40,995 nucleotides of DNA from an uncultured Methanospirillaceae archaeon (GTDB lineage: Archaea > Halobacteriota > Methanomicrobia > Methanomicrobiales > Methanospirillaceae). Location: positions 1-40,995 of the forward strand of contig CASGHA010000141.1 in NCBI GenBank assembly GCA_949319355.1, written 5' to 3'. Of the stretch, positions 5,358 to 19,797 are shown one piece after another (within the stretch, counting starts at the first letter, position 1; the number at the start of each line of letters is the position of its first letter). Position numbers and translations under genes: made by a program. The notes beneath the pieces were generated by a model, which saw only the letters and a list, made by a program, of their open reading frames with translations, did no database searches and was not told where the DNA came from.

Positions 5358-5375
5358 TCCTACCACTCCAGGTCA

Positions 5376-5546: not shown

Positions 5547-6302
5547 CTACTCCTTTCTGGGTGGTTCCTGGAGGAGCCTTCTCATGATATCCTCCTCCTT
5601 CCGGTAGTAAAGGTCATCATGTCCCGACCAGGGCTCACAGCCTTTCATGAGTACCGCCGGGACACCGTTGTTACTCTCTCCCATGACATAGTTCGCAAAT
5701 CCCGCGATCTCATCAACAACAGCCTCTTCGGTTATCTTGAGGACATGGCCAAAGAGGTCTTTATCCCCGCGGAAGTCTCTGATGGCATGGATCCCACTCC
5801 AGCCAATGGCATTTCCCGTCTGGCCGCGGCGGAACGCCCTCCCAACGGTATCGGTGATGATAACCCCGGATGTATTCCCGGTAATGTCCAGTATACGCTG
5901 CCTGACCTCTGCAGCGGCTTTCATTGAGTCAGGCGGCAGGAGGATGACCTTTCCGTCATCGATGTTGCTCTGGTCGACCCCTGCACGGACACCTATGTGG
6001 CCACCCGCGACTTCTGAAAGGATGAACGGGTACTCCAGGAGCACATCGGTCGAGGCGTCGAGGACCGCCTGGAGAAACCTGGGGTCTTCACCCGTCCTCT
6101 TTCCGATCCTGACAGCACGGTCACCTGGCGTGATATCGGCAAGCATCCGTGTATACCCCTTTGATTTTGAATAGACCGATGATGCGATGCACAGGATATC
6201 CCCGTTTTCGACATGGACGCGGTCTGTTATCAGGGAAGGAAGGTCATCCCCGCGCTGGATCAGAGGAAGACCTGTTACAGGAAGTACGGTTATCGGCATC
6301 AT
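5547..6302 (-). CDS. cofE: Coenzyme F420-0:L-glutamate ligase (F420 gamma-glutamyl ligase)
   Basis: Family motifs recognised: GDILCIASSVYSKSKGY, EDPRFLQAVLDAST, GHIGVRAGVDQSNI, LLPPDSMKAAAEVRQRI, VIITDTVGRAFRRGQTGNAIGWSG. The ~250 aa length is typical. Confidence 0.9.
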   Translation of the reverse strand: MMPITVLPVTGLPLIQRGDDLPSLITDRVHVENGDILCIASSVYSKSKGYTRMLADITPGDRAVRIGKRTGEDPRFLQAVLDASTDVLLEYPFILSEVAGGHIGVRAGVDQSNIDDGKVILLPPDSMKAAAEVRQRILDITGNTSGVIITDTVGRAFRRGQTGNAIGWSGIHAIRDFRGDKDLFGHVLKITEEAVVDEIAGFANYVMGESNNGVPAVLMKGCEPWSGHDDLYYRKEEDIMRRLLQEPPRKE

Positions 6303-6582: not shown

Positions 6583-8277
6583 TTAGATCTTGAGGTCGTC
6601 CTCGTCGAGGTCGAGGTCATCGAGAGAGGAGCCCTCTTCTGGTTGTTCTATGTCTGCCGTTTCCTCTTCGCCTTCATTTTCATCCACATCCTCTCCTCCG
6701 CCGCGGCGTTTCATGAGATAGATGATGAGGATAACGACGATCACGACGACGACGATGATGACGATCAGGAGGAGCAGGAGGTAAAAGGGGAGTGCCCCGA
6801 TGATCGGAAGTCCCGCAGGCGTTGGCGTTGGTGTTGGAGTCCGGATGACCACGGGTTCAGGTGTGGGTGTCGGCACCGGGTTGAAGAGGCCGTACATGCT
6901 GAAATGACTGACGGTTATCGTGACCGTCCGTGCTGTCGGGTCGACCGCGGCCGGGACATCCTCCCATGACTTCGAGGTCGGGTTGTACCATTTTGCCTTT
7001 ATCTCCTGCTGGCTTACGGAACCCCATTTATCCTGGGGAATGAGGAACCGGATGGTCGCGCCTGGAGAGAAGGACGCTCCGTCAGGCTTAAAGTCATAGG
7101 CAATCCCTGAAAAAGTTAAGGTCGGTCCTGCTGACGGGACATCTGCCTGGTTCACCCTGACGACCCTGATGTTATCAAGCGGCTTTCCGGAGGCGTCAAC
7201 CGGCTGCACGCCGGTCGCAAGTGAAACCGATGCGATTCCGTCCTCGGAAACGATATCAACCGGGTTTAATACCGTACCGTTCGCTGACAGGGGAATCATC
7301 CCGCTTCCCACCGGGACGGTTGGTGCCGTGGTCCTGGCAGCATAGGCGGTTGCCGTCGGCTTCGGGTTGGGGTTGATGTAGGTATCGTACTGGTTGTCAC
7401 TCCCACCATCACCCGAGCTGCCGCCACCTCCGCCACCAGTGCCGCCTCCGCTGGAACTGGTGGTCACTTCGATGACAAGCTCTGTCGTCTTGCCGCTCTG
7501 GTAGGGATAGGAATTCATCCAGCCAGATGCTTCCTGCACTGACTTGACCCTGGCCTTTGCAGCCCGAAGGTAGTTCTTGTCGGTGACCCAGAACTCCACG
7601 GGGGCACCATCGGAAATACCACCCTGGACGATAAGTTTCTGTTCAAGGGCTCCTGAGCCTCCAAAACGGCTGTCACCCATGACATAGACCGGGTTGTTCG
7701 GACCGCTGATGGCACGGCCATAAACCCTTGCCTCCACGATCCCATCGGTAGAGACGGGTTTGCCATAGGCGATGACAGTCCCATAGAAACTGTGTGGCAG
7801 GCTTGGGAGAAGCGTGGAAACCGCGGTCCCGGTCGGCTGGCCGGTAGGCTTTGTCGTAGGCTTTGTGGTAGGAGCTGTAGTCGTCGGTTTCGTCGTTACC
7901 GGGCTGCCGCCGGTTGACAGGTCGAGGTTTGTCGCTATGCCCGGCTGGAATGGGACTTTCTGGATCGCTGCCTTTCCCGCAATGGTGAACTCAACGGTTG
8001 GAGTACCCTTTGCCAGGTCTTCCTCGGTAGCGACCACGACAAGCCGCTCACTGAATGCCCCCGTTCCCGAACCGTATACACCACTGGAACTCGTTGTTAT
8101 CGACCCGCGCTGCTGGCCGTTTATCTTGGCTATTATGGTCGTCCCCGATGGTGCCGCCTTTCCGTCTATCGACACTGAGCCGTAGAATTCCGCAGGCAAG
8201 GGCGGGGCCGCCGAAGCCGAGGAAATGAGGAGAAGCGCCAGCAGGGCGAAGGAAAAGAGAAGTAAGGGGGTTCTCAT
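6583..8277 (-). CDS. Membrane-anchored surface protein: signal peptide, two 'FYG' beta-modules, T/P and G/S linkers, PGF-pre-PGF-like domain, single TM, acidic cytoplasmic tail
   Basis: Preferred start is ATG 8277 (MRTPLLLFSFALLALLLISSASA), with GGAGG at 8286-8290; the track start is 8310. PGF-pre-PGF-like segment: FSGIAYDFKPDGASFSPGATIRF...TITVSHFSMYGLF. C-terminus: LLLLLIVIIVVVVIVVILIIYLMKRR followed by 39 aa, 19 of them D/E. Confidence 0.8.
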   Translation of the reverse strand: MRTPLLLFSFALLALLLISSASAAPPLPAEFYGSVSIDGKAAPSGTTIIAKINGQQRGSITTSSSGVYGSGTGAFSERLVVVATEEDLAKGTPTVEFTIAGKAAIQKVPFQPGIATNLDLSTGGSPVTTKPTTTAPTTKPTTKPTGQPTGTAVSTLLPSLPHSFYGTVIAYGKPVSTDGIVEARVYGRAISGPNNPVYVMGDSRFGGSGALEQKLIVQGGISDGAPVEFWVTDKNYLRAAKARVKSVQEASGWMNSYPYQSGKTTELVIEVTTSSSGGGTGGGGGGSSGDGGSDNQYDTYINPNPKPTATAYAARTTAPTVPVGSGMIPLSANGTVLNPVDIVSEDGIASVSLATGVQPVDASGKPLDNIRVVRVNQADVPSAGPTLTFSGIAYDFKPDGASFSPGATIRFLIPQDKWGSVSQQEIKAKWYNPTSKSWEDVPAAVDPTARTVTITVSHFSMYGLFNPVPTPTPEPVVIRTPTPTPTPAGLPIIGALPFYLLLLLIVIIVVVVIVVILIIYLMKRRGGGEDVDENEGEEETADIEQPEEGSSLDDLDLDEDDLKI

Positions 8278-8293: not shown

Positions 8294-11200
8294 TCACGTT
8301 CCAATCGCACTTAAGGTCCCGGCTGATTTCATGAACAACCAGTACCCCTTGGTCGGGTAGAGCGTCCTCATGTCTGAGAAATCTCCGCTCCCGCCGTTTA
8401 CGATCGTCGTTTCATACTTCTGACCCGTGGCGTCAAACCCTATCGCATTTGCCCACTGTGCCTGGACCGAGAAGAATGCATCACGTGCGGTCGCCGGCTG
8501 CATACCGGAGAATCCTATGGCATTCCAACCGCTTGGGAGGTTCTTTGACGGCGGAACCGAGATGGGGTCGGTCGAGAACTTCAGGGGGACTGAAGTCAGG
8601 GCTCTTGAGTAGATCCAGATCCCGTCAAGCACTTTCACCGGGCTCGTTGGTGTCAGGGTAATCCAGGTACCCTTGGTCGTGTCGTACTCGTAGATCGAGT
8701 GACTGGCCGTATCCACGCTGGTAAAGATCGAGGCATTGTCATACCCCGGCTGGAGGACCCTGGGTGTTGAAACGAAGTTCCATCCCGGGAAGAGGGTTAT
8801 GCTGTCATATCCCGGAGGGATGGGCTGGTCTGACCGGACTGAAATCACCTGTGAGACCGTGCTGCTTGCATCAACTCCGTTTCCAACCGTCAGGGTGACC
8901 GTGTAATTGCCGGCATTATTGTAGGTATGCGATCCGGGGTTCGGCAATGCCGAATACGTCGAGTCACCGAAGTCCCAGAACCAGGTGTTCGGGTTCCCGT
9001 AGGACATGTCGGTGAAATTCACAGTCAGTGGTTTCATACCAATCGTCGGTTCCGCGCTGAAGGAGGCGGAAAGGACAACGGCACCGACATTGATGTAGGC
9101 GACCTTGCTTGCGGTCCTGGTCACACCATCAGGGTCTACCGCTTTTAAGGTCACCGTGTAGGAACCGTCAGTGACATAGGTGTGCGTCGGGTTCTTGTCG
9201 GTGGAGGTCGTGCTGTCACCGAACTCCCAGGTCCTGCTGATCTCCGTAATGGTCGAGAGGTCAGTGAAATTGACGGTCAGGGGAGCCCTGCCGCCGGTGG
9301 GGTTGGCAGAGAAGTCCATTCCGATTGAGTTCACGTCCTGGACCGTCAGGGTGAAGGTCTGGTAGATGTCGTCGACACAGGGCTGCTTGAGGGCGTTGAG
9401 GACACCGTTGTACCCTGCATAGTCATACTTTCCACCCGGGCCTTCGATCGGGAACAGGTATGACCACTTCACCGGGCACACGCTCGAGACGAACCAGCGG
9501 TTGGCACCATCGTTCGGGTTCTTCTGGAGGTCGATGTCCAGGACGCGGTTGTACATCGGGTGCTGGAGGATGAAGTAATACCTGCCTGGCGCAACCTTGT
9601 CGACCGGGAATACCGGGTCATTCGGGCCGAAAGAGATAGTGAACGTGTCGTCGCACTTCACTTCGTAGTAGGCGTGGGCATAGTGGACGTCAGCGATCTT
9701 ACCGTCACCGAATATCCATAGCCCGATTATCTTCTTCCCTGTGACCGGATCTACGCCGAGTCCGGTGGCCTTTCCACTGATGGTCACGGTGTGGTCGTTA
9801 CAGCACTCGCGGATGAGTGGGTTGGGCTTGAGCACGGCGGTGAGCACCGGGCGTTCTATGATAATTTTCGCCTGGGCTGTTGCAGCGCATGCGACGCAGC
9901 AGTCATTGCATTTGTTCGGGCAGTACGCCACGTTGCTGCACGGAGTCGGGCTTGGCGAGGGGGCAGGGGTCGGGACATCGCAGGACCAGTTGCTTGCCGC
10001 GAAAATCGTGTATTCTCCGGCATCGATCTTGAGGTCCATGATGGTCCAGTTATACGTCCAGGTCCCGTCCTGGTTCACCTTGACCTTGGTCGGGATGCCG
10101 AGAGGTATCTGCGGGTTGTCGATGGGTGCCCCACAGACTGGCTGGCACGGGCCCTTTAACCAGAGGAAGGTTGTGAGCGTCTCGGTGTTCGTTCCGTTGA
10201 TGAGGACGAACTTCGAGGTGCCGAGCGTTACATTTGCCGGCATGTTGATGGTCACGACCCCCTTGGTGACCGTTACCTTGGCGTCAGGGTTCGTGTAGAT
10301 GTCACGGTTGTCGATGGTCTTTCCCTGGGCATGATAGGTAAAGGTGGCCGGAGCGGTATCGATGGAGGTCTGCAGGTTGATGACCTTGGTCCCGGTTGCA
10401 TCTGTCTTCACATAGGCGTAGTATCTTGTCCCGTCAAAGGGTGTCTTCGGGATGATGCTGCGTATGGTGCTTCCCGGGTAACAGCAGTCAGGGACAGTCT
10501 TCGTGTTCCCGATGGTGTAGTTGCCGTTCGGGGTGTCAAAGAGGACGTTCTCCTGGCCTTCCACGATCATTGGCGGCTGGTTACAGGCTTTTCCATCGAA
10601 TGTCTGCGGGCAGTCCATCAGGTATACATAGTACCAGGTGTTCGGCCTGCCCGTTACGATAAGGTTGAAGGGCTTGGACCTGACAACCGATGTCGGGTTT
10701 GCCGTGATACTAAGGGTCTCGGGGAGGAGCTCGACATTCCGTGCAGCAGAAATAGCTGACGGGTTGTTGATGTTCAACTTGTTTGCAAGACAGGAGACCT
10801 TGAACTGGTAGATCCCTGTGTCATAGACGTAGTTCTCTCCTGACGGTCCCTTAACACCCGTGAACCAGCCGTTGTTGGTCTTCTCAGTTACCCAGTAGTA
10901 CGGGTTGTTGTTCACTGGGATGCTCACGAGGGAGATATCCGTTCCTGTCGGTGACATCAGGGCACTATAGATGTTGCCACCCGGGCCTGTGACATTGATG
11001 ACGAACGGGCCTGGTGAGCTCGGGTCCCTGGTGGTTATCGGGAACAGGTTCGTCTCTATCCTGAAGTTCAGGACAGTCCCCTGGAAGACTTTCTTATCGG
11101 TTACGTCCAGGTCTGTCGGGTTGGTAACGGACTTGATCTGGATGTACGGCTTCATCAGCGTGAAAGCGGTCTTTCCAGCCGGTGGAGCCCCGTTCCAGCA

Positions 11201-11521
11201 GTACCATGTACCCTGGCTCACATCTGAGAAGATCTTCGGGTCAAAGTAAAACGACTTCTTGTTCGACAGGTCGTTCACTATCTGTATCGGTGTGTCCTTG
11301 GTCGGGTCGGCATTGTTTGCGAACAGTGCGATCCGCGTGTACGGGTCAGGGACTGCGACCGAGATGTCCATACCTTCCTCCCCGATGAACACCGTGCTGT
11401 TCGGGGCGACGTATGTGAAGCCCTTCGGGAACGGGGGAGGGACGTCAGCCGAGACGACACAGCCGAATACGGAGGCCGCCAGGGCGAGTACCATGATGAG
11501 TTTCAACCATTTTCCAGTCAT
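8294..11521 (-). CDS. Large secreted Cys-rich surface (S-layer-like) glycoprotein, paralogue A: conserved core, Cys knot, 2 PKD domains, twin-GWN C-terminal domain
   Basis: Signal peptide MTGKWLKLIMVLALAASVFGCVVSA and many N-x-S/T sequons. Collinear with 11523..14984 (VFIGEEGMDIS/VYVGEEGLDIT, NPTDLDVTDKKVFQGTVLNF/NPNDLDVTDKSVFHGTVLNF, LWLKGPCQPVCGA/LWLKGPCQPECGA, RECCNDHT in both, GRYYFILQHPMYN/GRYYMILQHPMYN). From memory it resembles the Methanomicrobiales-restricted DUF3821-type S-layer glycoproteins; this is unverified. Confidence 0.85.
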   Translation of the reverse strand: MTGKWLKLIMVLALAASVFGCVVSADVPPPFPKGFTYVAPNSTVFIGEEGMDISVAVPDPYTRIALFANNADPTKDTPIQIVNDLSNKKSFYFDPKIFSDVSQGTWYCWNGAPPAGKTAFTLMKPYIQIKSVTNPTDLDVTDKKVFQGTVLNFRIETNLFPITTRDPSSPGPFVINVTGPGGNIYSALMSPTGTDISLVSIPVNNNPYYWVTEKTNNGWFTGVKGPSGENYVYDTGIYQFKVSCLANKLNINNPSAISAARNVELLPETLSITANPTSVVRSKPFNLIVTGRPNTWYYVYLMDCPQTFDGKACNQPPMIVEGQENVLFDTPNGNYTIGNTKTVPDCCYPGSTIRSIIPKTPFDGTRYYAYVKTDATGTKVINLQTSIDTAPATFTYHAQGKTIDNRDIYTNPDAKVTVTKGVVTINMPANVTLGTSKFVLINGTNTETLTTFLWLKGPCQPVCGAPIDNPQIPLGIPTKVKVNQDGTWTYNWTIMDLKIDAGEYTIFAASNWSCDVPTPAPSPSPTPCSNVAYCPNKCNDCCVACAATAQAKIIIERPVLTAVLKPNPLIRECCNDHTVTISGKATGLGVDPVTGKKIIGLWIFGDGKIADVHYAHAYYEVKCDDTFTISFGPNDPVFPVDKVAPGRYYFILQHPMYNRVLDIDLQKNPNDGANRWFVSSVCPVKWSYLFPIEGPGGKYDYAGYNGVLNALKQPCVDDIYQTFTLTVQDVNSIGMDFSANPTGGRAPLTVNFTDLSTITEISRTWEFGDSTTSTDKNPTHTYVTDGSYTVTLKAVDPDGVTRTASKVAYINVGAVVLSASFSAEPTIGMKPLTVNFTDMSYGNPNTWFWDFGDSTYSALPNPGSHTYNNAGNYTVTLTVGNGVDASSTVSQVISVRSDQPIPPGYDSITLFPGWNFVSTPRVLQPGYDNASIFTSVDTASHSIYEYDTTKGTWITLTPTSPVKVLDGIWIYSRALTSVPLKFSTDPISVPPSKNLPSGWNAIGFSGMQPATARDAFFSVQAQWANAIGFDATGQKYETTIVNGGSGDFSDMRTLYPTKGYWLFMKSAGTLSAIGT
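8297..8806 (-). other. Twin-GWN C-terminal domain, copy in paralogue A (170 aa)
   Basis: DSITLFPGWNFVSTP...DGIWIYS...PLKF / NLPSGWNAIGFSG...YETTIV...LYPTKGYWLFM...GTL. It aligns end to end with the last 169-170 aa of the two upstream genes. Confidence 0.8.
8837..9334 (-). repeat. Two tandem PKD domains in paralogue A (protein-level repeat, 83 aa each)
   Basis: FSANPTGGRAPLTVNFTDLS...WEFGDSTTSTDKNPTHTYVTDGSYTVTL and FSAEPTIGMKPLTVNFTDMS...WDFGDSTYSALPNPGSHTYNNAGNYTVTL. Confidence 0.85.
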
Positions 11522-11522
11522 G

Positions 11523-14500
11523 TTAGATCACTCCTTCGAGAGTACCGTCAGAATTCATATCAATCCAGTATCCATGCGTCGGATACATAAGCCTGTTCTC
11601 GCTCGTCTCGGGATCCTGGCTCCCTGCGATGATCGCCGTCTCATACTGCTGCTTCGATGCATCCCATCCGTTCACCTGGTTCCACAGACCCTTCACCGAC
11701 AGGAGGTCGTCACGGGCTGACTTCGGATATATACCTGACACTCCGATGGCATTCCATCCGGTGTATAACTGTTTCACGGGCTTTACTCCGCTCGTCGTGT
11801 TGAGCGACAGGCTGATGCTCATCGTACTGGTCGAATACACTCCGTATCCCTCAAGTGGGACGATGACTTCAGAGGCTGTGACCGAGTCCCATGCCTGGCT
11901 GATTCCGTTGTACTTGCGAATCGAGTGGCCCGCGGTATTCACTCCTCCAAAGACCTTCGAGGCGGTATTCTGGCCCTCCTTCAGATAGAGGGGGACTGAT
12001 GCGAGGTTCCATCCCGGGTAGAGGTCGATTGTCGTATATCCCGGGTAGGGAGTCGGGGTGGGGGTGACCCCCATGGTGCTGATATACTTGTTCTTCACGA
12101 TGTACCCCGAAGTCCCGTCGGCAAATTTCACGTTCAGGCTGACGTCAAAAATACCTGTTGTCTCGTAGGTGTGGACAGGGTTTTTTTCCGTGGAGGTTGC
12201 ACCGTCACCGAAATCCCAGCTCCACGCGTTCGCCGTCGTCGCGGACTTGTCGGTGAATGTGACCTTCAGGGGAGCAGAACCGGCTACGGGTGTTCCACTG
12301 AAGTCAACCTTTCCTCCGCTGTCATCAACGACGTAAAAGCTGAGTGTGGTGTAGATATCATCCACACAGTCTGCGTTCAGGGCTTCGATGACACCGTCAT
12401 ACATTTCCTTGTCCATCTTAGCCCCGGGCCCCTCGACCGGGAAGAGGAAGGATGGCAGGATGTTCGGACACCAGGACACGACGTATTTGCGGTTCCTTGT
12501 CGGATCGTAATACCCTCCGTTCAAAACCTCGATGTCAAACCTGTTGTTGTACATCGGGTGCTGGAGGATCATGTAGTACCTGCCGTTCTTCACCTTGTCG
12601 ACCGGGAAGCCATGGACGTATGTCAGTCCAAGGCCCGGGTCATCGACACCACTGCCGTCCTTCGTGAGCTTGATGGTAAACGTGTCATTGCACGAGACGT
12701 AGGCATCTCCGACAAGGTAGTGGATATCGAGGATCTTCCCGTCTCCGAAGAGCCAGAAGCGTATCTTTTTCGTGTTGTTGACCTCGCTGCATTGGGTATG
12801 AAGCCCTGTTGCGGTACCCTGGATGGTTATGGTATGGTCATTGCAGCATTCCCTGACAAGGACTGACGGTGTCACCGTCGCACTGATGATCGGCTTGATC
12901 AGGGTTATGTTCGTCTGGGTAGTCGCGGCACATCCCGTGCAGAGCTTGCAGTCCTGGTTGGGACAGTAGCAGGACTGTTCACAGGTGGACGTTGTCCCGC
13001 TCCCTCCATTCGATGTACACTGCCCGTTGCAGTCTCCTCCCTGGCGACAGATGGGAATCGGGCAGGGGACCTCGGGAGTACATGGGTTTACATACCCGTT
13101 ATCGGTGACATTGGATACTGTGCAGTTCGTTGAACAATACCAGTTCGTTGCTGCATAAATCGTGTATTCACCAGCATCGATGTTCAGGTTCGCGACCGAC
13201 CATTTGTATTCCCATGTCCCGTCGGCGGAAACCGGCACGACCGTCGGACAACCAAGCTTGTAACTTGGATTCGAGAGATTTGCGCCGCATTCTGGCTGGC
13301 ACGGTCCCTTGAGCCAGAGGTAGGTCCTCAGGGTTTCCGTGTTCACCCCTTTTATGAGGATAGTGTTCAGGGTCCCGAGGGTTGCACTCGGCTGCATGGA
13401 GATACTGATGCTTCCTGCCGTGACCGTGACCTGGGCATCAGGATCGGTATATATGATTTTTCCGTCCAGGCCACGGGTGTAAGCATGATAGGTAAACGTC
13501 GTGGTCTTGGTATTCAGGGTGGTGAGCATGTTGATGACGGCCTTCCCTGAATCGTCGGTCTTGACATAGGCGTAATACCGGACACCGTTTTCAGGTTTCC
13601 TGGGGACGACATCCTTGATAGGACTGTTCGGGAAACAGCACTCCGGATAGGTCATGTTGTTTCCTATTGTGTAAACCGGGAACGCGGGATTGTATCCGTC
13701 CATAATGACATTGTTCTGACCGGGTGCGATAAGCGGGGCTTCGTCGCACGTCCCCCCTGTCAGGGTCCTCGGGCAGTCCTTTAAGTAGAAGTTATACCAG
13801 GTGTTGGGCCGTCCCTGAATGGTCAGGCTGAACGGATTGGAACGGATGACACTTGACGGGCTGGACGTGATGCTCACGACTTCAGGCTTCAGCTCGACCG
13901 TGTGCGTCTTCGAGACCGCCCCTGATGGATTGTTTTCCTTCAGCTTGTTCGCATTGCATTCAATCCAGAAGGAATATGTCCCCATCTTGTACTGGAAATT
14001 CATACCCTGGGTGTCCTGTGCAGCGGTATACCATCCCTGTTCAGTCCCGGGGGTGACCATGTAATAGGGGTTGTTGCTAATCCTGAAATCCTTGAGTGAG
14101 ATCTGTCCTGTCTTGCTTGCAAGGGCTGTGTAGATGACCCCGTCAGGGCTCTTCACGTAGATGGTGAAAGGACCCACTCCCGCAGGACAGGAAGTAGTAC
14201 GGCTGCCCATTGCATCGAGGTTTGTCTCAACCTTGAAGTTCAGGACCGTCCCATGGAACACCGACTTATCGGTTACATCGAGGTCATTGGGGTTGTCAGT
14301 GCAGGTAATGTTCATTACCGGGTTGACAGCCACAAATGCGACCATCAGGTTTCTTGTAACATTAATCTGGTCGCTCCACAGGTACCATGCCCCCTGATAT
14401 CCCGAATATTGCGTTGGTGCGATGAAGTAACTGGTCTTCGACCCGGACGGTATGGGAAGGATCATCTTCGGGTTCGCTGTGATAGGGTCATCCCCTGCTT

Positions 14501-14984
14501 CGAACCAGGCAATCGATGATATGTTCCCAACGGCATTCGTGATGTCGAGCCCTTCCTCCCCGACATACACGGTGTCACCCTGGTTGATCTGGTTGATCTT
14601 GCATGGTGCCGGAGTTGGTGTCGGGGTCGGTGAGGAACCAATCGTCAGGTCCAGCGACGTGGAACCGCCGCTTAAGAAATACGCGGTTTCCGAAGCCTGG
14701 TTCCCGTTGATATAGAACGTGATGAGATCTCCGTTCATGTTTCCGGTGACGAGGAGCTGCGGAGTCGTGATACCGTACGATCCATTCGTCGCGGTCGTCG
14801 TGGTCCCAACTATGGTCCCATTAATCTTCGCACTAATCGTAGCCCCTGCAACCGGCAGGTTGTTCACTTTTGCCGTACCGTAGAAGAACTCAGGGAGGAC
14901 CGGCGCTGCCATCGCCGTCCCTACCATGAGTACGAGCAGAATCCCTGCTATGATGAACCCTTTTTTCATAACCTCTCCCTTCAT
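11523..14984 (-). CDS. Large secreted Cys-rich surface (S-layer-like) glycoprotein, paralogue B: N-terminal FYG module, conserved core, expanded Cys knot, 1 PKD, twin-GWN C-terminal domain
   Basis: Signal peptide MKKGFIIAGILLVLMVGTAMA (alternative start ATG 14969, preceded by GGGAGAGG). FYG module at 14637-14903, PKD at 12075-12314 (FSGTPVAGSAPLKVTFTDKS...WDFGDGATSTEKNPVHTY). A 24-mer identical to paralogue A (gttgtacatcgggtgctggaggat at 12546-12569 and 9548-9571) encodes ILQHPMYN. Confidence 0.85.
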   Translation of the reverse strand: MKGEVMKKGFIIAGILLVLMVGTAMAAPVLPEFFYGTAKVNNLPVAGATISAKINGTIVGTTTTATNGSYGITTPQLLVTGNMNGDLITFYINGNQASETAYFLSGGSTSLDLTIGSSPTPTPTPAPCKINQINQGDTVYVGEEGLDITNAVGNISSIAWFEAGDDPITANPKMILPIPSGSKTSYFIAPTQYSGYQGAWYLWSDQINVTRNLMVAFVAVNPVMNITCTDNPNDLDVTDKSVFHGTVLNFKVETNLDAMGSRTTSCPAGVGPFTIYVKSPDGVIYTALASKTGQISLKDFRISNNPYYMVTPGTEQGWYTAAQDTQGMNFQYKMGTYSFWIECNANKLKENNPSGAVSKTHTVELKPEVVSITSSPSSVIRSNPFSLTIQGRPNTWYNFYLKDCPRTLTGGTCDEAPLIAPGQNNVIMDGYNPAFPVYTIGNNMTYPECCFPNSPIKDVVPRKPENGVRYYAYVKTDDSGKAVINMLTTLNTKTTTFTYHAYTRGLDGKIIYTDPDAQVTVTAGSISISMQPSATLGTLNTILIKGVNTETLRTYLWLKGPCQPECGANLSNPSYKLGCPTVVPVSADGTWEYKWSVANLNIDAGEYTIYAATNWYCSTNCTVSNVTDNGYVNPCTPEVPCPIPICRQGGDCNGQCTSNGGSGTTSTCEQSCYCPNQDCKLCTGCAATTQTNITLIKPIISATVTPSVLVRECCNDHTITIQGTATGLHTQCSEVNNTKKIRFWLFGDGKILDIHYLVGDAYVSCNDTFTIKLTKDGSGVDDPGLGLTYVHGFPVDKVKNGRYYMILQHPMYNNRFDIEVLNGGYYDPTRNRKYVVSWCPNILPSFLFPVEGPGAKMDKEMYDGVIEALNADCVDDIYTTLSFYVVDDSGGKVDFSGTPVAGSAPLKVTFTDKSATTANAWSWDFGDGATSTEKNPVHTYETTGIFDVSLNVKFADGTSGYIVKNKYISTMGVTPTPTPYPGYTTIDLYPGWNLASVPLYLKEGQNTASKVFGGVNTAGHSIRKYNGISQAWDSVTASEVIVPLEGYGVYSTSTMSISLSLNTTSGVKPVKQLYTGWNAIGVSGIYPKSARDDLLSVKGLWNQVNGWDASKQQYETAIIAGSQDPETSENRLMYPTHGYWIDMNSDGTLEGVI
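11526..12035 (-). other. Twin-GWN C-terminal domain, copy in paralogue B (170 aa)
   Basis: TTIDLYPGWNLASVP...EGYGVYS...SLSL / QLYTGWNAIGVSG...YETAII...MYPTHGYWIDM...GTL. Confidence 0.8.
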
Positions 14985-17399
14985 TTATGCCATCCCCTGA
15001 AGAACACCGTTGTCAGTCAGATACACCCAGTAGCCGTGTGCAGGGTACAGGACCCGGTTGTCTGAGTAGACCGGGTCTGTGCTCCCTCTCACGATAACCT
15101 CCTCCGGGCTCTGGGTCATCCCGTTAAATCCCTGTACATAGGTCCAGGTGGTTCCGAGAGACTGGAGGGTCAGGTTGGCTGAACGGGGTGTAAGACCTGA
15201 AAAGCCCATGCCGTTCCACCCCTTGTACAGTTGTCTGGACGGGGTGGGTGATACAAAGGCGAATTGCAACGGGACTATCGTATTTGCTGTCGAGAATACC
15301 CAGTAACTCTCCAGGGGTCTGAGGACACGCCCTGAGGACACGATCTCCCAGGACGTCGTGTTGCCGTCGTACATGAGGATTGAACGATGGCCCGTATTCA
15401 CACCAGCAAATACTACCCCTGCGGTTGCATTACCCAAACCCAGTTCTTTTGGAACGGAGACATGGTTCCAGCCGGGGTAGAGGACGATACTGTCCCCGGA
15501 TGGTACCTCTCCCGTTATGGTAACCTGGTGGGTGGCATTACTTGAACCGCCGTCGTTGGTGACCGTGAGCGTGACGTTGAATGTCCCTGCCATGAGATAG
15601 GTATAGACCGGGTTCTGGTACGGAGAAGCTCCTCCTTCACCGAAGTCCCACAACCACTGGGTTATCCCCGCACCTGTTGACTGGTCGGTAAACTGGATGG
15701 GGATAGAAACGTTCCCGTTGAAGGTGCTTGCCGTGAATGCAGCCACTGGCGGGCTGTTCAGGACATGCACTGCGTTCTCCCGCGACGCGATGGCGGATCC
15801 CTGGGCGTTGCTCACCTGGAGTTCGATTTTATAGGGGCCTGGTTTTTCCAGTGAGAAACTGGGACTTTGCAGGTTGGACGTGTTGACCAGCTGGTACCCT
15901 GAACCTGTCCACCAGAACACTTTCCAGAACCATGATGTGGGTGACCCGGTTGAGGTGTCCTGGCATGCGATTTCAAGGGGTGCGAAACCGGTTTCAGGGT
16001 TTACGGTAAAGTTCGCGCCCAGAGATGAACTGCCCACCCTGATGAAGTCTGTCGCCACTTTATTGCTGGTCTGGTTGTTGATGTCGGTGACGGTCAGAGA
16101 AACGGTGAAATTATTGGCCGTCTGGTAGGTGTGGACAGGATTTTTCAGGAACCGGTCAGAGTGAGTGGAATTGTCCCCAAAGTCCCAGAGGTATGTCAAC
16201 GGGCCTGCTCCGGCCGACTGGTCAATGAAATCGACGGTAAGGGGAGGGGCTCCTGACCTGGGGCTTGCCGCGAAGTCGGCGAAGGGTCCTGGCATGAGAG
16301 TCGCCTGGATGTCGCGTGACTTCTGACCGGTCTTTCCATCTCCGTCAGTGACTGTCAGGTTCACATGGTACGTCCCTGCACCCGTAAAGGTGTGCACCGG
16401 GTTTCGTTCCATTGATGTTGTGTTATCGCCGAAACTCCAGTTATAGGAGAGTGGTGAAACCCCTTTCGATGTGTCGGTGAAGCTCACGTGGAGGGGAGCG
16501 ACCCCGACAACCGGGCTCTCAGTAAAGTCGACATTCGGTGAAGGACCAACGGTGATCTGGAGCGGTGCCGAGGTATTCGTCATGTACTGGACGGCGGCGG
16601 TCAGGGTGACCGTGCTCGTGTTGTGGAATACGTGCACCGGGTTTCGTTCGTTCGACGTCGAACCGTCTCCGAAGTCCCAGTAGTACCGGTTTCCGAAGAG
16701 GGCCATTATGGGGTTGGTCGGGTCAACCGGCCACATCCCGCGGGATGTGTCATTGAACTGCACGGTGAGCGGGCCGTCCCCCGATACCGGTGATGCCGTG
16801 AAACTGGCTGCCGGGTATACGTCAATCCCGTAATCCCACGCTTCATCTGAAAGCCCGTGGCCTCCGGTAGCATTCAGGTAGATTTCGTAACTCCCTGCAT
16901 AGGGGAAGGTCACCAGGGGGTCCTTACTGGTCGAATTCATCGTGTCCATCCCCCAGAACTCCCAGTACCATGCCGTGGGAGACCCTTGCGAGGTATCGTG
17001 GAACTGTACTGTCAATGGCGCAGGACCCGATGCAGGAGAATAGGAAAAGCTGGCATTCGGATGAACCGCCACGTTCTTGGTAATTTTCGACGTGCTCGCA
17101 TCCGTTCCGGTCACCGTGAGGTTCACGGCATAGAGGTCGGATGTGTGATAGTCGTGCGTTGCGTTCTGTGTGTTTGCGTAACCTGCGTCTCCAAACTCCC
17201 ACAGCCAGGAAGCAATGCTGCCCGTAGAGTTGTCAGTAAACTGGACCGAAAGGGGCGCCCTGCCTTCATCCGGAACGGCGTTAAAATCCGCGTTCACGGC
17301 TGCACTGGCGAACCCTATAATAAGCAGGCCCAGGACTGCTACAAACAGAGCACCTGCTGCGCGGAGCCTTCGTTCGCTAGGCTCCTCTCGTTCTTGCAT
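14985..17399 (-). CDS. Secreted protein with seven tandem PKD domains and the twin-GWN C-terminal domain; first gene of the envelope operon
   Basis: N-terminal signal (SERRLRAAGALFVAVLGLLIIGFASA). Seven repeats follow the PKD pattern F..sP..G.aPL.V.F.D.S.G....W.WdFGD......NP.H.Y, then 169 aa of twin-GWN domain. Its stop directly abuts the next gene. Confidence 0.9.
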   Translation of the reverse strand: MQEREEPSERRLRAAGALFVAVLGLLIIGFASAAVNADFNAVPDEGRAPLSVQFTDNSTGSIASWLWEFGDAGYANTQNATHDYHTSDLYAVNLTVTGTDASTSKITKNVAVHPNASFSYSPASGPAPLTVQFHDTSQGSPTAWYWEFWGMDTMNSTSKDPLVTFPYAGSYEIYLNATGGHGLSDEAWDYGIDVYPAASFTASPVSGDGPLTVQFNDTSRGMWPVDPTNPIMALFGNRYYWDFGDGSTSNERNPVHVFHNTSTVTLTAAVQYMTNTSAPLQITVGPSPNVDFTESPVVGVAPLHVSFTDTSKGVSPLSYNWSFGDNTTSMERNPVHTFTGAGTYHVNLTVTDGDGKTGQKSRDIQATLMPGPFADFAASPRSGAPPLTVDFIDQSAGAGPLTYLWDFGDNSTHSDRFLKNPVHTYQTANNFTVSLTVTDINNQTSNKVATDFIRVGSSSLGANFTVNPETGFAPLEIACQDTSTGSPTSWFWKVFWWTGSGYQLVNTSNLQSPSFSLEKPGPYKIELQVSNAQGSAIASRENAVHVLNSPPVAAFTASTFNGNVSIPIQFTDQSTGAGITQWLWDFGEGGASPYQNPVYTYLMAGTFNVTLTVTNDGGSSNATHQVTITGEVPSGDSIVLYPGWNHVSVPKELGLGNATAGVVFAGVNTGHRSILMYDGNTTSWEIVSSGRVLRPLESYWVFSTANTIVPLQFAFVSPTPSRQLYKGWNGMGFSGLTPRSANLTLQSLGTTWTYVQGFNGMTQSPEEVIVRGSTDPVYSDNRVLYPAHGYWVYLTDNGVLQGMA
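14988..15494 (-). other. Twin-GWN C-terminal domain, copy in the PKD protein (169 aa)
   Basis: DSIVLYPGWNHVSVP...ESYWVFS...PLQF / QLYKGWNGMGFSG...EEVIV...LYPAHGYWVYL...GVL. Confidence 0.8.
15498..17294 (-). repeat. Array of seven PKD domains (protein-level tandem repeat)
   Basis: Repeat starts: NADFNAVPDEGRAPLSVQF, NASFSYSPASGPAPLTVQF, AASFTASPVSGDGPLTVQF, NVDFTESPVVGVAPLHVSF, FADFAASPRSGAPPLTVDF, GANFTVNPETGFAPLEIAC, VAAFTASTFNGNVSIPIQF. The repeats are divergent at DNA level. Confidence 0.85.
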
Positions 17400-17983: not shown

Positions 17984-18679
17984 TTACCTGCCCGCCGGTG
18001 GAGATGAGGAGATGGTCATAGTCAGGTTGCCGTCGATTACGCGGGCATCGGTAACTGACTGGAAAAAACCTGAACTGACGCTTCCGAATGACATGTCAAC
18101 CGCCAGGGATACGGGGGTCGCAATGGAGGTCTCATTGATTCCGAGGAGGAGGACCGGGGTATCTCCTTGTGATACTGTCGGTATGACCTCTGCGGGGGCT
18201 CCTAGTACCCGAGGGTCCAGAGAAGGGGAGGTCTCCATGCCCTGCTCCAGGGTATGAAGCGTGATGGTGATCATCTGGTCTGCATTTTCAGGTACGCAGA
18301 CGCATTGCTCTCCTCCCTGTACCGGGTCTGGGCACTGGATCTCCTCAAACCTCTCTCCCGGAGAGGTGACCGGTGTGGTGGAAACGGTATCATTTTCACT
18401 GATTTCAATTTCAAATGGCTTATTATAGGACGAATTCCTGTTCATATTCTCATCAGGACAGATAATCCCGGTACCCAGGCATACTGGTGACACCAGGCAT
18501 TCTTGTCCCTGGGATACGTCACGACTTCTGGATATTTCCTGGACCTCTTCGGCCGGGTCCAGGCTGAGGATCGTGATCTCCGCCATGTCAGGGGACTGCC
18601 AGGTGCCGGTGTCAGCGAGGCCTCCCCATGAGAGAAAAGTCAGGCCAAGGACTGAAACGACACACCACGCAGTGTTCAT
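17984..18679 (-). CDS. Secreted hypothetical protein (231 aa), Cys-containing
   Basis: N-terminal signal peptide MNTAWCVVSVLGLTFLSWGGLA and clustered Cys (ECLVSPVCLGTGIICP; IQCPDPVQGGEQCVCVP). No family recognised; monocistronic by spacing. Confidence 0.6.
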   Translation of the reverse strand: MNTAWCVVSVLGLTFLSWGGLADTGTWQSPDMAEITILSLDPAEEVQEISRSRDVSQGQECLVSPVCLGTGIICPDENMNRNSSYNKPFEIEISENDTVSTTPVTSPGERFEEIQCPDPVQGGEQCVCVPENADQMITITLHTLEQGMETSPSLDPRVLGAPAEVIPTVSQGDTPVLLLGINETSIATPVSLAVDMSFGSVSSGFFQSVTDARVIDGNLTMTISSSPPAGR

Positions 18680-18791: not shown

Positions 18792-19598
18792 TCAGTCCTC
18801 ATGCAGCTGTTGTCTGACACCTGCAAGGAGGATGCAGCCTGCCAATGCCATGACCAGGGCTGCGAACCCGAGAGGCGACTTCTTTGTTGTTGCAACAGGC
18901 ACTTCGGCCGCCTTCTGTGGTGATGAGCCGGCAGGTGTCTGTACAGACACTGACTCCCTGGTTCCTGTTGCATTAGCAGGAGTTATGTTCGTGCTATCCG
19001 GTGATTTGTTGACTGATACGGGAGCACCTTCATGAGGTGTCATCACGCCTGCTGTTGTAGCAGATGCCATGATGGTCCCGGTCGTGACCGGTTGCCCTGT
19101 CCGTGCAACTGTTGGAAAATCTCCCGAGTCCGGGGATGATGACTGGCTGCCTGTCGAGGCACTCTTTGAAGACAGGCTGGTCGCCTGGACCACTGGATAT
19201 TCTGCCTGTTTCTGGCCTGCTGAACCTGAAGAGCCGACGGTGAGGTCCAGTCTGGTACTTGCCCCTGCCTGGTATGTAGCGGTCTCTGCAGCCTTCTGGC
19301 CGTTGACCGTGAACTCGATGACGGGTGACCCTGCAGACTTGAGTTCTTCCTCCGTCATCGCGATTGAGAGCCTCTGGTCGAACGTCCCGGTCCCACCGTA
19401 GATACCTGCAGATGTTGTGGTTATTGAGCCCCGCTCCACACCATTGATTACCGCTTTGACCACGGTTCCCGGCTCTGCCTGGGCTCCGTTTACCGCAACA
19501 CTGCCGAAGAACTCTGATGGGAGCACAGGAGCCCCGTGCACCGTCATGACCATCAGGACGGCTGTAAAAATGAGTACACCTGTTTTAAAGCCTTTCAT
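18792..19598 (-). CDS. Surface protein: signal peptide, one FYG module, S/T/P-rich stalk, PGF-CTERM-like C-terminal sorting signal
   Basis: Preferred start is ATG 19598 (MKGFKTGVLIFTAVLMVMTVHGA); the track ORF extends to 19682. The FYG module at 19233-19529 is ~55% identical by eye to module 1 of the 6583..8277 protein. C-terminus: VPVATTKKSPLGFAALVMALAGCILLAGVRQQLHED. Confidence 0.7.
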   Translation of the reverse strand: MKGFKTGVLIFTAVLMVMTVHGAPVLPSEFFGSVAVNGAQAEPGTVVKAVINGVERGSITTTSAGIYGGTGTFDQRLSIAMTEEELKSAGSPVIEFTVNGQKAAETATYQAGASTRLDLTVGSSGSAGQKQAEYPVVQATSLSSKSASTGSQSSSPDSGDFPTVARTGQPVTTGTIMASATTAGVMTPHEGAPVSVNKSPDSTNITPANATGTRESVSVQTPAGSSPQKAAEVPVATTKKSPLGFAALVMALAGCILLAGVRQQLHED

Positions 19599-19737
19599 AT
19601 GGATGAATGTTATTCGGCGCCCGATAAAAAGGCATTGGAGGTAATCATCTGGCAGATTGTCGCTTATGGAGCAGAAAGGCACTCCTCATCACGGTTTCAG
19701 ACCTCCCCTCCCCTGGTTTCACCGTGTTGCACTTACG

Positions 19738-19767
19738 TGTCTGTTGTATCTTGTAACAGACATTTTT
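19738..19767 (+). promoter_or_regulatory. 8-bp inverted repeat (tgtctgtt-9 nt-aacagaca) followed by T5 in the divergent promoter region
   Basis: Arms at 19738-19745 and 19755-19762, then ttttt at 19763-19767. It lies 31 nt upstream of ATG 19798 and 140 nt upstream of the divergent start at 19598. Confidence 0.3.
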
Positions 19768-19797
19768 CCGTTTTCAGGACCGGTTTTCATAAATAGC

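What the first reader, a model, noticed from the sequence alone, without database searches (positions are those of the whole stretch)
8297..15494. Uncharacterised 170-aa 'twin-GWN' C-terminal domain shared by three consecutive secreted proteins
The last 169-170 residues of the three proteins (nt 8297-8806, 11526-12035, 14988-15494) align without gaps at the extreme C-terminus. In each protein a short P/T/G-rich linker after the final PKD domain precedes the domain. The domain looks internally duplicated. Half 1 starts [LY]-[FY]-PGWN-x-[VA]S-x-P and ends in the loosely conserved DGIWIYS/EGYGVYS/ESYWVFS segment followed by ...PL-x-F. Half 2 starts L-x-x-GWN-[AG]-[IM]G-[FV]SG, includes YE-x-x-I[IV] (EEVIV in the third protein), and ends [LM]YP-x-x-GYW-[ILV]-x-[ML]...G-x-L. 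Because none of the three proteins has another anchoring device, this domain is the obvious candidate for cell-surface attachment or lattice assembly. I do not recognise it as a named family.
Basis: seen in the sequence. Interest (0 to 1): 0.65.

Follow-up and report, generated by a model that had tools for sequence, protein, structure and literature searches.

The report
Unnamed archaeal C-terminal surface-docking domain
Three neighbouring secreted proteins of a methanogen end in the same unnamed 170-residue duplicated domain, which tags hundreds of secreted archaeal proteins and usually sits beside a gene for a membrane-anchored stalk protein, so it is probably a new docking module that holds proteins on the cell surface.

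Summary
The last 169-170 residues of three consecutive minus-strand genes (A 8294-11521, B 11523-14984, C 14985-17399) are homologous (BLASTP E 2e-37 and 4e-48). The domain is an internal duplication (hhalign 96.7 %) and gives a confident AlphaFold2 model (pLDDT 94.7).

It matches no Pfam or NCBIfam model, no PDB sequence and no PDB fold. The window comes from an uncultured Methanoregulaceae archaeon.

The domain is common in Methanomicrobiales and ANME-1. It sits almost always at the extreme C-terminus of signal-peptide proteins with very different N-terminal parts: PKD, S-layer-like DUF3821, beta-helix, proteases and phosphatases.

In the S-layer protein family it is mutually exclusive with the PGF-CTERM lipid-anchor signal.

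The gene directly downstream very often encodes a type I membrane protein. This partner has an N-terminal Ig-like "EFYG" head, a second conserved "WYNP" domain, Pro/Thr linkers and a C-terminal transmembrane helix. In the window it is D, 6583-8277.

Best reading (about 0.5): a non-covalent docking module that tethers anchorless surface proteins to this co-encoded stalk. That would work like dockerin-cohesin or SlaA/SlaB without belonging to either family. Binding itself is untested.

The parts
8297..8806 (-). Twin-GWN domain of protein A (residues 906-1075). Half 1 is about 8552-8806 and half 2 about 8297-8551.
   Evidence: Domain HMM E 4e-72. AlphaFold2 pLDDT 94.7, pTM 0.88. Half-versus-half hhalign probability 96.7 %.
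11526..12035 (-). Twin-GWN domain of protein B (last 170 residues).
   Evidence: Domain HMM E 6.8e-61. BLASTP against C, E 4e-48.
14988..15494 (-). Twin-GWN domain of protein C (last 169 residues).
   Evidence: Domain HMM E 5.6e-59. BLASTP against A, E 2e-37.
8294..11521 (-). Gene A, 1075 aa: signal peptide, S-layer-protein-like region (DUF3821 plus Ig-like domains, residues about 10-730), a Cys-rich segment, 2 PKD domains, a short linker and the twin-GWN domain.
   Evidence: Pfam DUF3821 1e-42 and PKD. NCBIfam NF041431 S_layer_MEMAR scores 281.6 bits against a cut-off of 600. About 30 % identity over 99 % of residues 1-730 to PGF-CTERM S-layer glycoproteins.
11523..14984 (-). Gene B, 1153 aa (probable start at M6, nt 14969): signal peptide, N-terminal EFYG Ig-like domain (nt 14595-14912), S-layer-protein-like region, a Cys-rich segment, 1 PKD domain and the twin-GWN domain.
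14985..17399 (-). Gene C, 804 aa: signal peptide, 7 PKD domains and the twin-GWN domain. It has no DUF3821.
6583..8277 (-). Gene D, the proposed docking partner and membrane anchor (564 aa from the ATG at 8277, which is 17 nt after A's stop). It has a signal peptide, EFYG domain 1 (7891-8220), a PT linker, EFYG domain 2 (7456-7818), a Gly run, the WYNP domain (6871-7323), a PT linker, a TM helix (6712-6792) and an acidic cytoplasmic tail.
   Evidence: Translation. EFYG and WYNP HMM hits and C-terminal TM. The same gene type lies directly downstream of twin-GWN genes in many unrelated loci. EFYG1 AlphaFold2 pLDDT 89, beta-sandwich.
18792..19598 (-). Second small EFYG protein (about 268 aa from M29): signal peptide, EFYG domain (19218-19535), S/T/P-rich stalk and a PGF-CTERM-like tail SPLGFAALVMALAGCILLAG (18819-18872).
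   Evidence: Translation. EFYG HMM hit. BLASTP to D-like proteins of other loci.

Best explanation
The twin-GWN domain is a compact, internally duplicated, about 170-residue module. I propose that it acts as a non-covalent C-terminal docking tag.

Proposed mechanism:
1. Proteins that carry the tag are exported by their N-terminal signal peptide and have no anchor of their own.
2. The tag binds a co-encoded type I membrane 'stalk' protein. In the window this is D: an N-terminal Ig-like EFYG head or heads, a WYNP domain, Pro/Thr-rich linkers, a C-terminal TM helix or a PGF-CTERM-like tail.
3. This keeps the passenger proteins on the cell envelope. Passengers include S-layer-protein paralogues, PKD proteins, beta-helix proteins and hydrolases.
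4. In A and B the tag occupies the position that the spacer plus PGF-CTERM lipid anchor has in the canonical Methanomicrobiales S-layer protein. A and B could therefore join or underlie the S-layer while being held through D.

What is shown: the existence of the domain, its duplication, its confident fold, its C-terminal position, the secreted and diverse passenger proteins, its exclusivity with PGF-CTERM, and its gene linkage to the anchor family.

What is inferred: physical binding, and which anchor domain (EFYG or WYNP) is the receptor.
For: 1. **Position.** 183 of 199 full domain hits end at the last residue of the protein.
2. **Passengers.** In 54 sampled proteins the N-terminal parts were PKD 33, DUF3821 9, NosD/beta-helix 8, NHL 5, peptidases C14/S8/M10/C1, phosphoesterases and a lectin-like domain. 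Of 125 full-length members, 106 have an N-terminal hydrophobic signal.
3. **Exclusivity with PGF-CTERM.** S-layer-family homologues of A carry either PGF/PGY-CTERM (about 24) or PKD plus twin-GWN (6), never both.
4. **Gene linkage.** There are 61 non-redundant twin-GWN genes with downstream sequence (A-like, 45-57 % identical; a biased sample).
   - 33 are followed directly, on the same strand and usually within 20 nt, by an EFYG protein without twin-GWN. 22 of these 33 have the EFYG + WYNP + C-terminal TM architecture.
   - 14 are followed by another twin-GWN gene.
5. **Linkage holds elsewhere.**
   - ANME-1 loci L004, L006 and L007 show it.
   - So do independently chosen non-S-layer members: Methanofollis aquaemaris CP036172 (3-nt gap), L113, L114 and the CP037968 island.
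   - So do syntenic loci L108 and L110.
6. **EFYG in the same polypeptide.** EFYG domains also occur inside 9 of 210 twin-GWN proteins, including B.
7. **Co-variation.** Over 26 operons, twin-GWN distances track the adjacent EFYG (r 0.85) and WYNP (r 0.80) more closely than those two track each other (r 0.77). Partial r(T,E|W) is 0.61. This is suggestive only.
8. **Literature.** PMC11641113 reports that the M. hungatei S-layer protein is anchored by spacer plus PGF-CTERM. It also reports that PKD-bearing paralogues Mhun_0424/0425 are envelope-associated with no described anchor.
Against: - No binding evidence of any kind exists. No complex prediction could be run.
- 14 of 61 sampled genes, the P0067 contig and the Methanospirillum triple L107 have no TM anchor gene next to them.
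- There is no simple stoichiometry between twin-GWN and EFYG domains across operons.
- Distant relatives in Thermoplasmata and bacteria have no EFYG or WYNP neighbour, so the ancestral role of the repeat need not be anchor docking.
- A few proteins carry the domain near the N-terminus (L009-L012).
- The metagenome sample was biased towards A-like domains.
- The mirror-tree correlation is confounded by shared operon history.
Confidence: 0.5

Rival explanations
1. Envelope- or glycan-binding module. The domain binds the S-layer lattice or its N-glycans, or the glycosylated Pro/Thr stalks, in a lectin-like way. It does not recognise a specific protein domain of the anchor. The neighbouring anchor gene would then be just another component of the same surface structure.
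For: - The nearly invariant residues are mostly Trp, Tyr, Asn, Gln and Gly (W19, N20, W58, W74, W104, N105, W128, Q139, Y165, W166). That make-up is typical of sugar-binding sites.
- Twin-GWN genes without an adjacent anchor exist.
- Distant relatives in Thermoplasmata and bacteria lack EFYG neighbours.
Against: - No structural similarity to any lectin or CBM in the PDB.
- The conserved aromatic residues may simply form the core; exposure could not be measured.
- It does not explain the very tight operon coupling to the anchor family or the co-variation.
Confidence: 0.2
2. Outward-facing adhesion or target-binding module. The domain recognises an external ligand such as a partner cell, a mineral or a polymer. 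It would target the attached enzymes and PKD arrays to that ligand, as a C-terminal carbohydrate-binding module does in secreted hydrolases.
For: - It is attached to proteases, phosphatases and beta-helix proteins.
- It occurs in syntrophic or consortial archaea (Methanomicrobiales, ANME-1).
- The single fold match is a phage protein of unknown role.
Against: - In S-layer paralogues it sits at the membrane-proximal end, where PGF-CTERM normally is (PMC11641113).
- Its strict terminal position and the linked membrane-anchor gene are not expected for a ligand-binding module.
Confidence: 0.12
3. Self-association or lattice module. The pseudo-symmetric twin domain oligomerises and helps the carrier proteins form arrays or hetero-hexamers with the S-layer protein.
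For: - Pseudo-two-fold duplication.
- Presence on S-layer paralogues A and B.
- Tandem arrays of genes with diverged copies.
Against: - Most carriers are not S-layer-like.
- In the M. hungatei lattice the contacts are made by Ig domains D1-D6, not by C-terminal extensions (PMC11641113).
- Copies within one operon are only 36-43 % identical.
Confidence: 0.1
4. Sorting or secretion signal domain. Like the T9SS C-terminal domain of Bacteroidota, it would be recognised by dedicated machinery, removed, and the protein attached covalently to a lipid or glycan.
For: - Strict extreme C-terminal position with a conserved tail, L-[AS]-A-I-[GS]-x-COOH.
- Very diverse passengers.
Against: - No enzyme or transporter gene is conserved next to these genes; the conserved neighbour is a non-enzymatic stalk protein.
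- Archaea have a single membrane and need no second translocation step.
- There is no match to TIGR04183/PF18962.
- 170 residues with a well-folded double lobe is large for a signal.
Confidence: 0.08

Closest known systems
Dockerin-cohesin system of cellulosomes (Pfam PF00404 / PF00963)
   Same: - An internally duplicated module at the C-terminus of many different secreted proteins.
- A partner protein built from beta-sandwich modules and linkers that is itself anchored to the cell.
- Some carriers have both module types, like adaptor scaffoldins. Examples are B and the Methanospirillum triple with 3-5 EFYG domains plus twin-GWN.
   Different: - No sequence or fold relation.
- Dockerin is about 70 residues, helical and Ca-binding. 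Twin-GWN is about 170 residues and mostly beta.
- Binding is unproven here.
- The host is an archaeon with an S-layer envelope.
SlaA/SlaB two-component S-layer of Sulfolobales
   Same: An anchorless lattice-type protein is encoded directly upstream of a membrane-anchored stalk protein (beta-sandwich domains plus a C-terminal TM helix) that holds it on the cell. This is the same gene order as A/B followed by D.
   Different: - No homology.
- SlaB uses a coiled coil.
- Here the tag is also used by many proteins that are not S-layer proteins, and the main S-layer protein of the lineage has its own PGF-CTERM anchor.
PGF-CTERM / archaeosortase A anchoring (PF18204, TIGR04126)
   Same: It occupies the same C-terminal position in the same S-layer protein family and is mutually exclusive with twin-GWN. 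Both presumably keep the protein on the cell.
   Different: PGF-CTERM is a short motif plus TM helix plus basic tail that is cleaved and replaced by a lipid. Twin-GWN is a soluble folded domain with no TM segment.
Methanospirillum hungatei S-layer paralogue cluster Mhun_0422-0425 (PMC11641113)
   Same: - The same kind of gene cluster: one PKD-only protein without DUF3821, plus DUF3821+PKD paralogues, one of them with an N-terminal extra Ig-like domain of about 100 aa (the equivalent of B's EFYG domain).
- Mhun_0424/0425 were detected in envelope (sheath) preparations.
   Different: - I could not obtain the Mhun sequences, so the presence of twin-GWN in them is untested. The genus does have the domain.
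- The paper does not describe a C-terminal domain or a partner anchor.
T9SS C-terminal sorting domain; SLH, GW and WxL cell-wall-binding domains
   Same: These are shared modules, largely C-terminal, on diverse surface proteins that determine cell-surface retention.
   Different: They are bacterial, target an outer-membrane translocon or cell-wall polymers, and show no profile or fold match here.

Membership tests
Any Pfam-A / NCBIfam domain family (for the C-terminal 170-180 aa) | Profile match above, or even near, the curated cut-off | tested here: not met
   Pfam at E<=10 on the isolated domains gives only Kelch_1 at E 0.07 (noise). NCBIfam on the whole proteins at E<=1 gives nothing in the C-terminal region. 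Distant relatives also have no hit.
T9SS C-terminal sorting domain (PF18962 / TIGR04183) | Profile match; an 80-100 aa beta-sandwich; a host with an outer membrane and T9SS | tested here: not met
   No profile hit. No fold hit to solved CTDs. The host is a Methanoregulaceae archaeon.
Dockerin type I (PF00404) | Two 22-residue Ca-binding repeats, about 70 aa, helical | tested here: not met
   No profile hit. The model is mostly beta and 170 aa long.
PGF-CTERM archaeosortase signal (PF18204) | PGF motif, a hydrophobic helix and a basic tail at the C-terminus | tested here: not met
   A, B and C end in ...TLSAIGT...TLEGVI and ...VLQGMA with no hydrophobic helix. Homologues have either PGF or twin-GWN, never both.
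SLH / GW / WxL / LysM-type wall-binding domains | Profile match to PF00395, PF13457, PF13731 or PF01476 | tested here: not met
   No hits at E<=10. No PDB fold match.
Known fold in the PDB | Foldseek E<1e-3 or TM>0.5 to a solved structure | tested here: not met
Methanomicrobiales S-layer glycoprotein family (NF041431, DUF3821 PF12863), for the N-terminal parts of A and B | DUF3821 (D1-D2) plus Ig-like domains, and an equivalog score of at least 600 bits | tested here: inconclusive
   DUF3821 is met (1e-42 and 1.9e-49). NF041431 scores 281.6 and 306.1 bits, below the cut-off of 600. Identity to PGF-CTERM S-layer proteins is about 30 % over 99 %. A and B are therefore paralogues, not equivalogs.
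Proposed new family 'twin-GWN C-terminal domain' | Two homologous halves of about 85 aa, each with L-x-x-GWN near its start and G-[IY]-W-[ILV] near its end; extreme C-terminal position; a secreted carrier protein | tested here: met
   All three window proteins meet these features. 183 of 199 family hits end at the C-terminus.

The most novel reading that the evidence does not exclude
Methanomicrobiales and ANME-1 may possess a previously unrecognised modular surface-assembly system analogous to cohesin-dockerin. The twin-GWN domain would be the 'plug' on hundreds of secreted proteins, including S-layer paralogues and hydrolases. The EFYG Ig-like domain would be the 'socket' on membrane-anchored stalks and on adaptor proteins that carry several sockets plus a plug. 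Multi-protein complexes would then be built on, or under, the S-layer.
Probability: 0.3. Interest if true: 0.8.

Novelty: new variant of a known kind. Interest (0 to 1): 0.6.

Why it matters
How archaea without a cell-wall polymer keep accessory proteins on their surface is largely unknown beyond TM helices and archaeosortase lipid anchors. This domain would add a third route.

- **Scale.** The tag appears on several hundred protein clusters in methanogens and in methane-oxidising ANME-1.
- **Unanswered question in the literature.** It offers a concrete, testable answer to a question the 2024 M. hungatei envelope study left unanswered. That question is how PKD-bearing S-layer paralogues that lack PGF-CTERM are held in the envelope.
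- **Annotation.** It identifies two or three unannotated domain families (twin-GWN, EFYG, WYNP) that deserve profile models. It would also improve annotation of the many 'PKD domain-containing' and 'hypothetical' surface proteins in these lineages.
- **Application.** A specific plug-socket pair from anaerobic archaea could also be useful for surface display.

Tried and rejected
- **Profile and structure searches.** Pfam, NCBIfam and PDB-sequence searches of the domain and of its distant relatives found nothing. Foldseek against the PDB found nothing. Foldseek against BFVD gave a single uninformative phage hit.
- **Inflated family counts.** The representative-library search used a profile that still contained about 85 PKD positions. 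Its totals (10,803 at E<=1e-3; 556 at E<=1e-30) overcount the family. I use only the top 150 hits, re-checked with a domain-only HMM.
- **Looking for Mhun_0422-0425.** Matching published molecular masses gave one false coincidence, P0161, which is a Methanofollis beta-helix protein. Full-length searches were swamped by PKD words. Twin-GWN in those M. hungatei proteins therefore stays untested.
- **Relation between domain types.** WYNP and EFYG are not remote relatives of the GWN repeat (hhalign probability 10 % or less).
- **Stoichiometry.** A simple 1:1 ratio between twin-GWN and EFYG domains per operon does not hold.
- **Thermoplasmata loci.** No conserved downstream partner was found.
- **EFYG fold.** It is only a generic Ig/transthyretin-like sandwich and is not cohesin-like in any specific way.
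- **Failed call.** The first metagenome scan failed because the alignment was too diverse. I repeated it with a 7-sequence alignment.
Full report
**1. What is in the window**

The region holds four co-directional minus-strand genes with almost no intergenic space.
- C: 14985-17399, 804 aa.
- B: 11523-14984, 1153 aa. The probable start is M6.
- A: 8294-11521, 1075 aa.
- D: 6583-8277, 564 aa. Its ATG lies 17 nt after A's stop codon.

The flanking genes are archaeal housekeeping genes: F420-glutamyl ligase, RLI, NFACT, MCM and RFC. The contig is 98 % identical, over A's C-terminal domain, to a contig of an uncultured Methanoregulaceae archaeon.

A and B start with a signal peptide followed by an S-layer-protein-like region.
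- Pfam DUF3821 matches at 1e-42 and 1.9e-49.
- NCBIfam 'MEMAR_RS02690 family S-layer glycoprotein' scores 282 and 306 bits, below its cut-off of 600.
- This region is followed by PKD domains.

C consists of seven PKD domains.

**2.

The last 169-170 residues of A, B and C are clearly homologous.
- MAFFT gives 42 % and 36 % identity to A with 50 invariant columns.
- BLASTP gives E 2e-37 for A-C and 4e-48 for B-C.
- One correction is needed: the alignment requires a few indels of 1-2 residues.

The proposed internal duplication is real.
- Profiles of the two halves, cut from a 44-sequence family alignment, match at hhalign probability 96.7 %, E 3.3e-10, over 71 columns.
- An AlphaFold2 model of A's last 180 residues, built with that alignment, is very confident (mean pLDDT 94.7, pTM 0.88).
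- The model shows the same order of elements in both halves: strand, strand, short helix, four strands.

**3. It is not a named family**

- hmmscan of the isolated domains against Pfam-A at E<=10 returns only a Kelch_1 noise hit.
- hmmscan of the whole proteins against NCBIfam returns nothing over the C-terminal domain.
- Diverged relatives from other lineages also return nothing.
- Profile searches of PDB sequences are empty.
- Foldseek of the confident model against the PDB gives no hit better than E 0.28 or TM 0.25.
- The only structural match anywhere is one predicted phage protein of unknown role. This is A0A8D9C8P8, labelled 'putative hemin binding protein', with E 2.4e-4 and TMq 0.60.
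- Full-text searches found no paper describing the domain.

**4. Distribution and architecture**

A word-index search found 44 short relatives in Methanofollis, Methanolinea and other 'Euryarchaeota'.

An exhaustive HMMER search of 1.84 billion representatives returned a top-150 list in which nearly every protein has the domain. The raw totals of that search are inflated, because PKD positions were still in the profile.

Re-scanning with a domain-only HMM showed that 183 of 199 full hits end exactly at the protein's C-terminus.

Named members include proteins of the following organisms:
- Methanofollis liminatans DSM 4140
- M. aquaemaris
- Methanospirillum sp.

GTDB genomes add Methanoregulaceae, other Methanomicrobiales and ANME-1/Methanophagales. 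More distant versions occur in two groups:
- Thermoplasmata and Methanomassiliicoccales, where the domain is two half-1-like repeats.
- A few bacterial MAGs.

A metagenome scan with two narrow peptide patterns found 381 further confirmed copies.

The N-terminal partners are very diverse and typical of extracellular proteins. In 54 sampled proteins they were:
- PKD: 33
- DUF3821: 9
- NosD/beta-helix: 8
- NHL propellers: 5
- caspase-like, subtilase, matrixin and papain peptidases
- phosphoesterases
- PEGA and CARDB domains
- a lectin-like domain

Of 125 full-length members, 106 have an N-terminal hydrophobic signal. The other 19 look like truncated gene calls.

**5. Two new pieces of context**

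*(a) The domain replaces PGF-CTERM in the S-layer protein family.* I searched with residues 1-730 of A and inspected the C-termini of the hits. The family splits cleanly.
- About 24 proteins of 835-1026 aa end in a PT spacer plus PGF/PGY-CTERM. These are the canonical S-layer glycoproteins, for example in Methanolinea.
- Six proteins of 1074-1231 aa end in PKD plus twin-GWN.
- None has both.

[quoted passage not shown] It also lists a cluster, Mhun_0422-0425, that resembles the window.
- One protein is PKD-only and lacks DUF3821, like C.
- The others are DUF3821+PKD paralogues. One has an extra N-terminal Ig-like domain of about 100 aa, like B.

Mhun_0424/0425 were found in envelope preparations. 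The paper describes no anchor for them. I could not obtain those sequences, so whether they end in twin-GWN is untested.

*(b) A conserved partner gene.* D has this architecture:
- a signal peptide;
- two copies of an unannotated domain of about 100 aa that begins P-x-L-P-x-E-F-Y-G directly after the signal cleavage site ('EFYG');
- Pro/Thr linkers and a Gly run;
- a second unannotated conserved domain ('WYNP');
- a C-terminal TM helix and a charged tail.

B's N-terminus is an EFYG domain. So is a small protein at 18792-19598 that ends in a PGF-CTERM-like tail.

I built HMMs of the three domain types and scanned 106 loci that had been retrieved through the twin-GWN domain alone. There were 61 non-redundant twin-GWN genes with at least 600 nt of downstream sequence.
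- 33 are followed directly by an EFYG protein that lacks twin-GWN. It is on the same strand, usually within 20 nt or overlapping. 22 of these 33 have the full EFYG + WYNP + C-terminal TM architecture.
- 14 are followed by another twin-GWN gene.
- 14 are followed by neither.

The sample is biased towards A-like domains (45-57 % identity), so I added other checks.
- ANME-1 loci L004, L006 and L007 show the same pair. The L007 anchor ends in a true PGF-CTERM.
- Seven members were picked independently of neighbourhood:
  - Four show the linkage. These are M. aquaemaris CP036172 (3-nt gap), L113, L114 (which is syntenic with the window) and the CP037968 island that holds both P0160 and P0119.
  - Two are negative. 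The P0067 contig has no anchor. The Methanospirillum triple has three to five EFYG domains inside its two upstream twin-GWN proteins but no TM anchor.
- Two S-layer-like homologues of A, from loci L108 and L110, show the linkage as well.

EFYG also occurs inside 9 of 210 twin-GWN proteins.

An AlphaFold2 model of D's first EFYG domain is a confident beta-sandwich (pLDDT 89). It has only generic Ig/transthyretin-like neighbours in the PDB. [quoted passage not shown]

Across 26 non-redundant operons the pairwise distances behave as follows:
- twin-GWN against adjacent EFYG, r = 0.85;
- twin-GWN against adjacent WYNP, r = 0.80;
- EFYG against WYNP, r = 0.77, even though these two lie in one polypeptide;
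- partial r(twin-GWN, EFYG | WYNP) = 0.61.

This fits co-evolution but is confounded by shared history.

**6. Interpretation**

The evidence consists of five features:
- a shared folded module at the extreme C-terminus of many unrelated secreted proteins;
- no other anchor on those proteins;
- mutual exclusivity with the lineage's lipid-anchor signal;
- tight operon coupling to a type I membrane stalk protein;
- occasional fusion of both module types in one polypeptide.

Together these are the signature of a retention or docking system. My best-supported reading (about 0.5) is that twin-GWN docks non-covalently onto the co-encoded EFYG/WYNP stalk.

In function this resembles dockerin-cohesin, or the SlaA/SlaB arrangement of Sulfolobales. 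In sequence and fold it belongs to neither. It fails every membership test I could run for T9SS CTD, dockerin, SLH, GW, WxL and PGF-CTERM.

Shown: the domain, its duplication, its fold confidence, its distribution, its position, its exclusivity with PGF-CTERM and its gene linkage. Inferred: physical binding, and which domain is the receptor.

The rivals are:
- glycan or S-layer binding (0.2);
- an outward-facing adhesion module (0.12);
- self-association or lattice formation (0.1);
- a cleaved sorting signal (0.08).

Points against the main reading:
- There are operons without an anchor.
- There is no fixed stoichiometry.
- Distant relatives lack EFYG neighbours.
- A few proteins carry the domain near the N-terminus, fused to DUF6345 or a DUF3108-like domain.

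**7. Novelty and score**

I rate it a new variant of a known kind: a C-terminal surface-retention module with a fold that has no match in the PDB, together with a newly recognised partner family. Interest is 0.6.

The main value is a directly testable hypothesis about how Methanomicrobiales and ANME-1 hold S-layer paralogues and exo-enzymes on their envelope.

Noticed in passing
window 7891-8220, 7456-7818 (D); 14595-14912 (B N-terminus); 19218-19535: An unannotated Ig-like 'EFYG' domain of about 100 aa (mature N-terminus P-x-L-P-x-E-F-Y-G) occurs four times in the window. It has no Pfam or NCBIfam match. Its AlphaFold2 model is a confident beta-sandwich with only generic PDB neighbours.
   Followed up: yes
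window 6871-7323 (D residues about 330-480): A second unannotated conserved domain ('WYNP': ...AYD..P.GA.F.P......W......L.IKWYNP.T..WED.P...D...RTV.A...H.S.Y.LF) lies between a Gly run and the TM helix of D-like anchors. It also sits at the C-terminal end of much larger TM-anchored proteins in other loci (L060, L108).
   Followed up: partly
window 18792-19598 (-): A small EFYG protein ends in SPLGFAALVMALAGCILLAGVRQQ, a PGF-CTERM-like tail with LGF in place of PGF that Pfam did not call. The ANME-1 counterpart (L007 1868-2620) has a canonical PLPGF...KRK tail. EFYG stalks therefore use either a TM helix or an archaeosortase-type anchor.
   Followed up: partly
window: A residues about 455-575 (about nt 9800-10160) and B residues about 545-705 (about nt 12870-13350): Cys-rich segments lie inside the S-layer-like parts of A and B. 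Examples are GPCQP.CGA, CPNKCNDCCVACA / CPNQDCKLCTGCA and RECCNDHT. B has an extra insert with about 10 more Cys. Some of these motifs recur in homologues such as P0088. This is unusual for extracellular proteins of a strict anaerobe.
   Followed up: no
window 1-6302 and 21075-28224 versus L108 and L114: The surface-protein island sits at a conserved chromosomal position (NFACT - RLI - ... island ... - DUF1616 - DUF58/MoxR) in related Methanoregulaceae genomes, but its content varies. C is replaced by a NosD beta-helix plus twin-GWN protein in L114 and by a 1303-aa WYNP-bearing protein in L108.
   Followed up: partly
L015-L026 (Thermoplasmata / Methanomassiliicoccales), L013, L014, L020 (bacterial MAGs): Diverged relatives of the GWN repeat exist outside Methanomicrobiales and ANME-1. 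In Thermoplasmata the C-terminal domain is two half-1-like repeats (GWNLISxP...GFWIH). Many copies occur in one genome (7 loci in bin33) and often in tandem genes. A Dehalococcoidia protein has two half-2-like repeats at its N-terminus. None has an EFYG neighbour.
   Followed up: partly
L009 5905-7314; L010-L012 (e.g. L012 5725-7236): These are exceptions to the C-terminal rule. In small Methanoregulaceae/Methanolinea proteins, twin-GWN follows the signal peptide directly. It is followed by a PT linker plus a DUF3108-like domain, or by DUF6345.
   Followed up: no
BFVD entry A0A8D9C8P8: The only structure-level relative of the twin-GWN model is a 587-aa protein labelled 'putative hemin binding protein' from an uncultured marine phage (TMq 0.60, 14 % identity). 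I could not retrieve its sequence.
   Followed up: no
window 32-580 (+): A truncated IS110/IS116/IS902-family transposase C-terminal domain lies at the contig edge (Pfam PF02371, 2.1e-28).
   Followed up: no
window 22044-28224 (-): A MoxR AAA+ ATPase - DUF58 - DUF4350 - DUF4129/CarboxypepD_reg operon lies next to DUF1616 and two unannotated proteins (19657-21078, 473 aa; 17984-18679, 231 aa, Cys-containing and secreted-looking). A link to envelope biogenesis is possible but was not examined.
   Followed up: no
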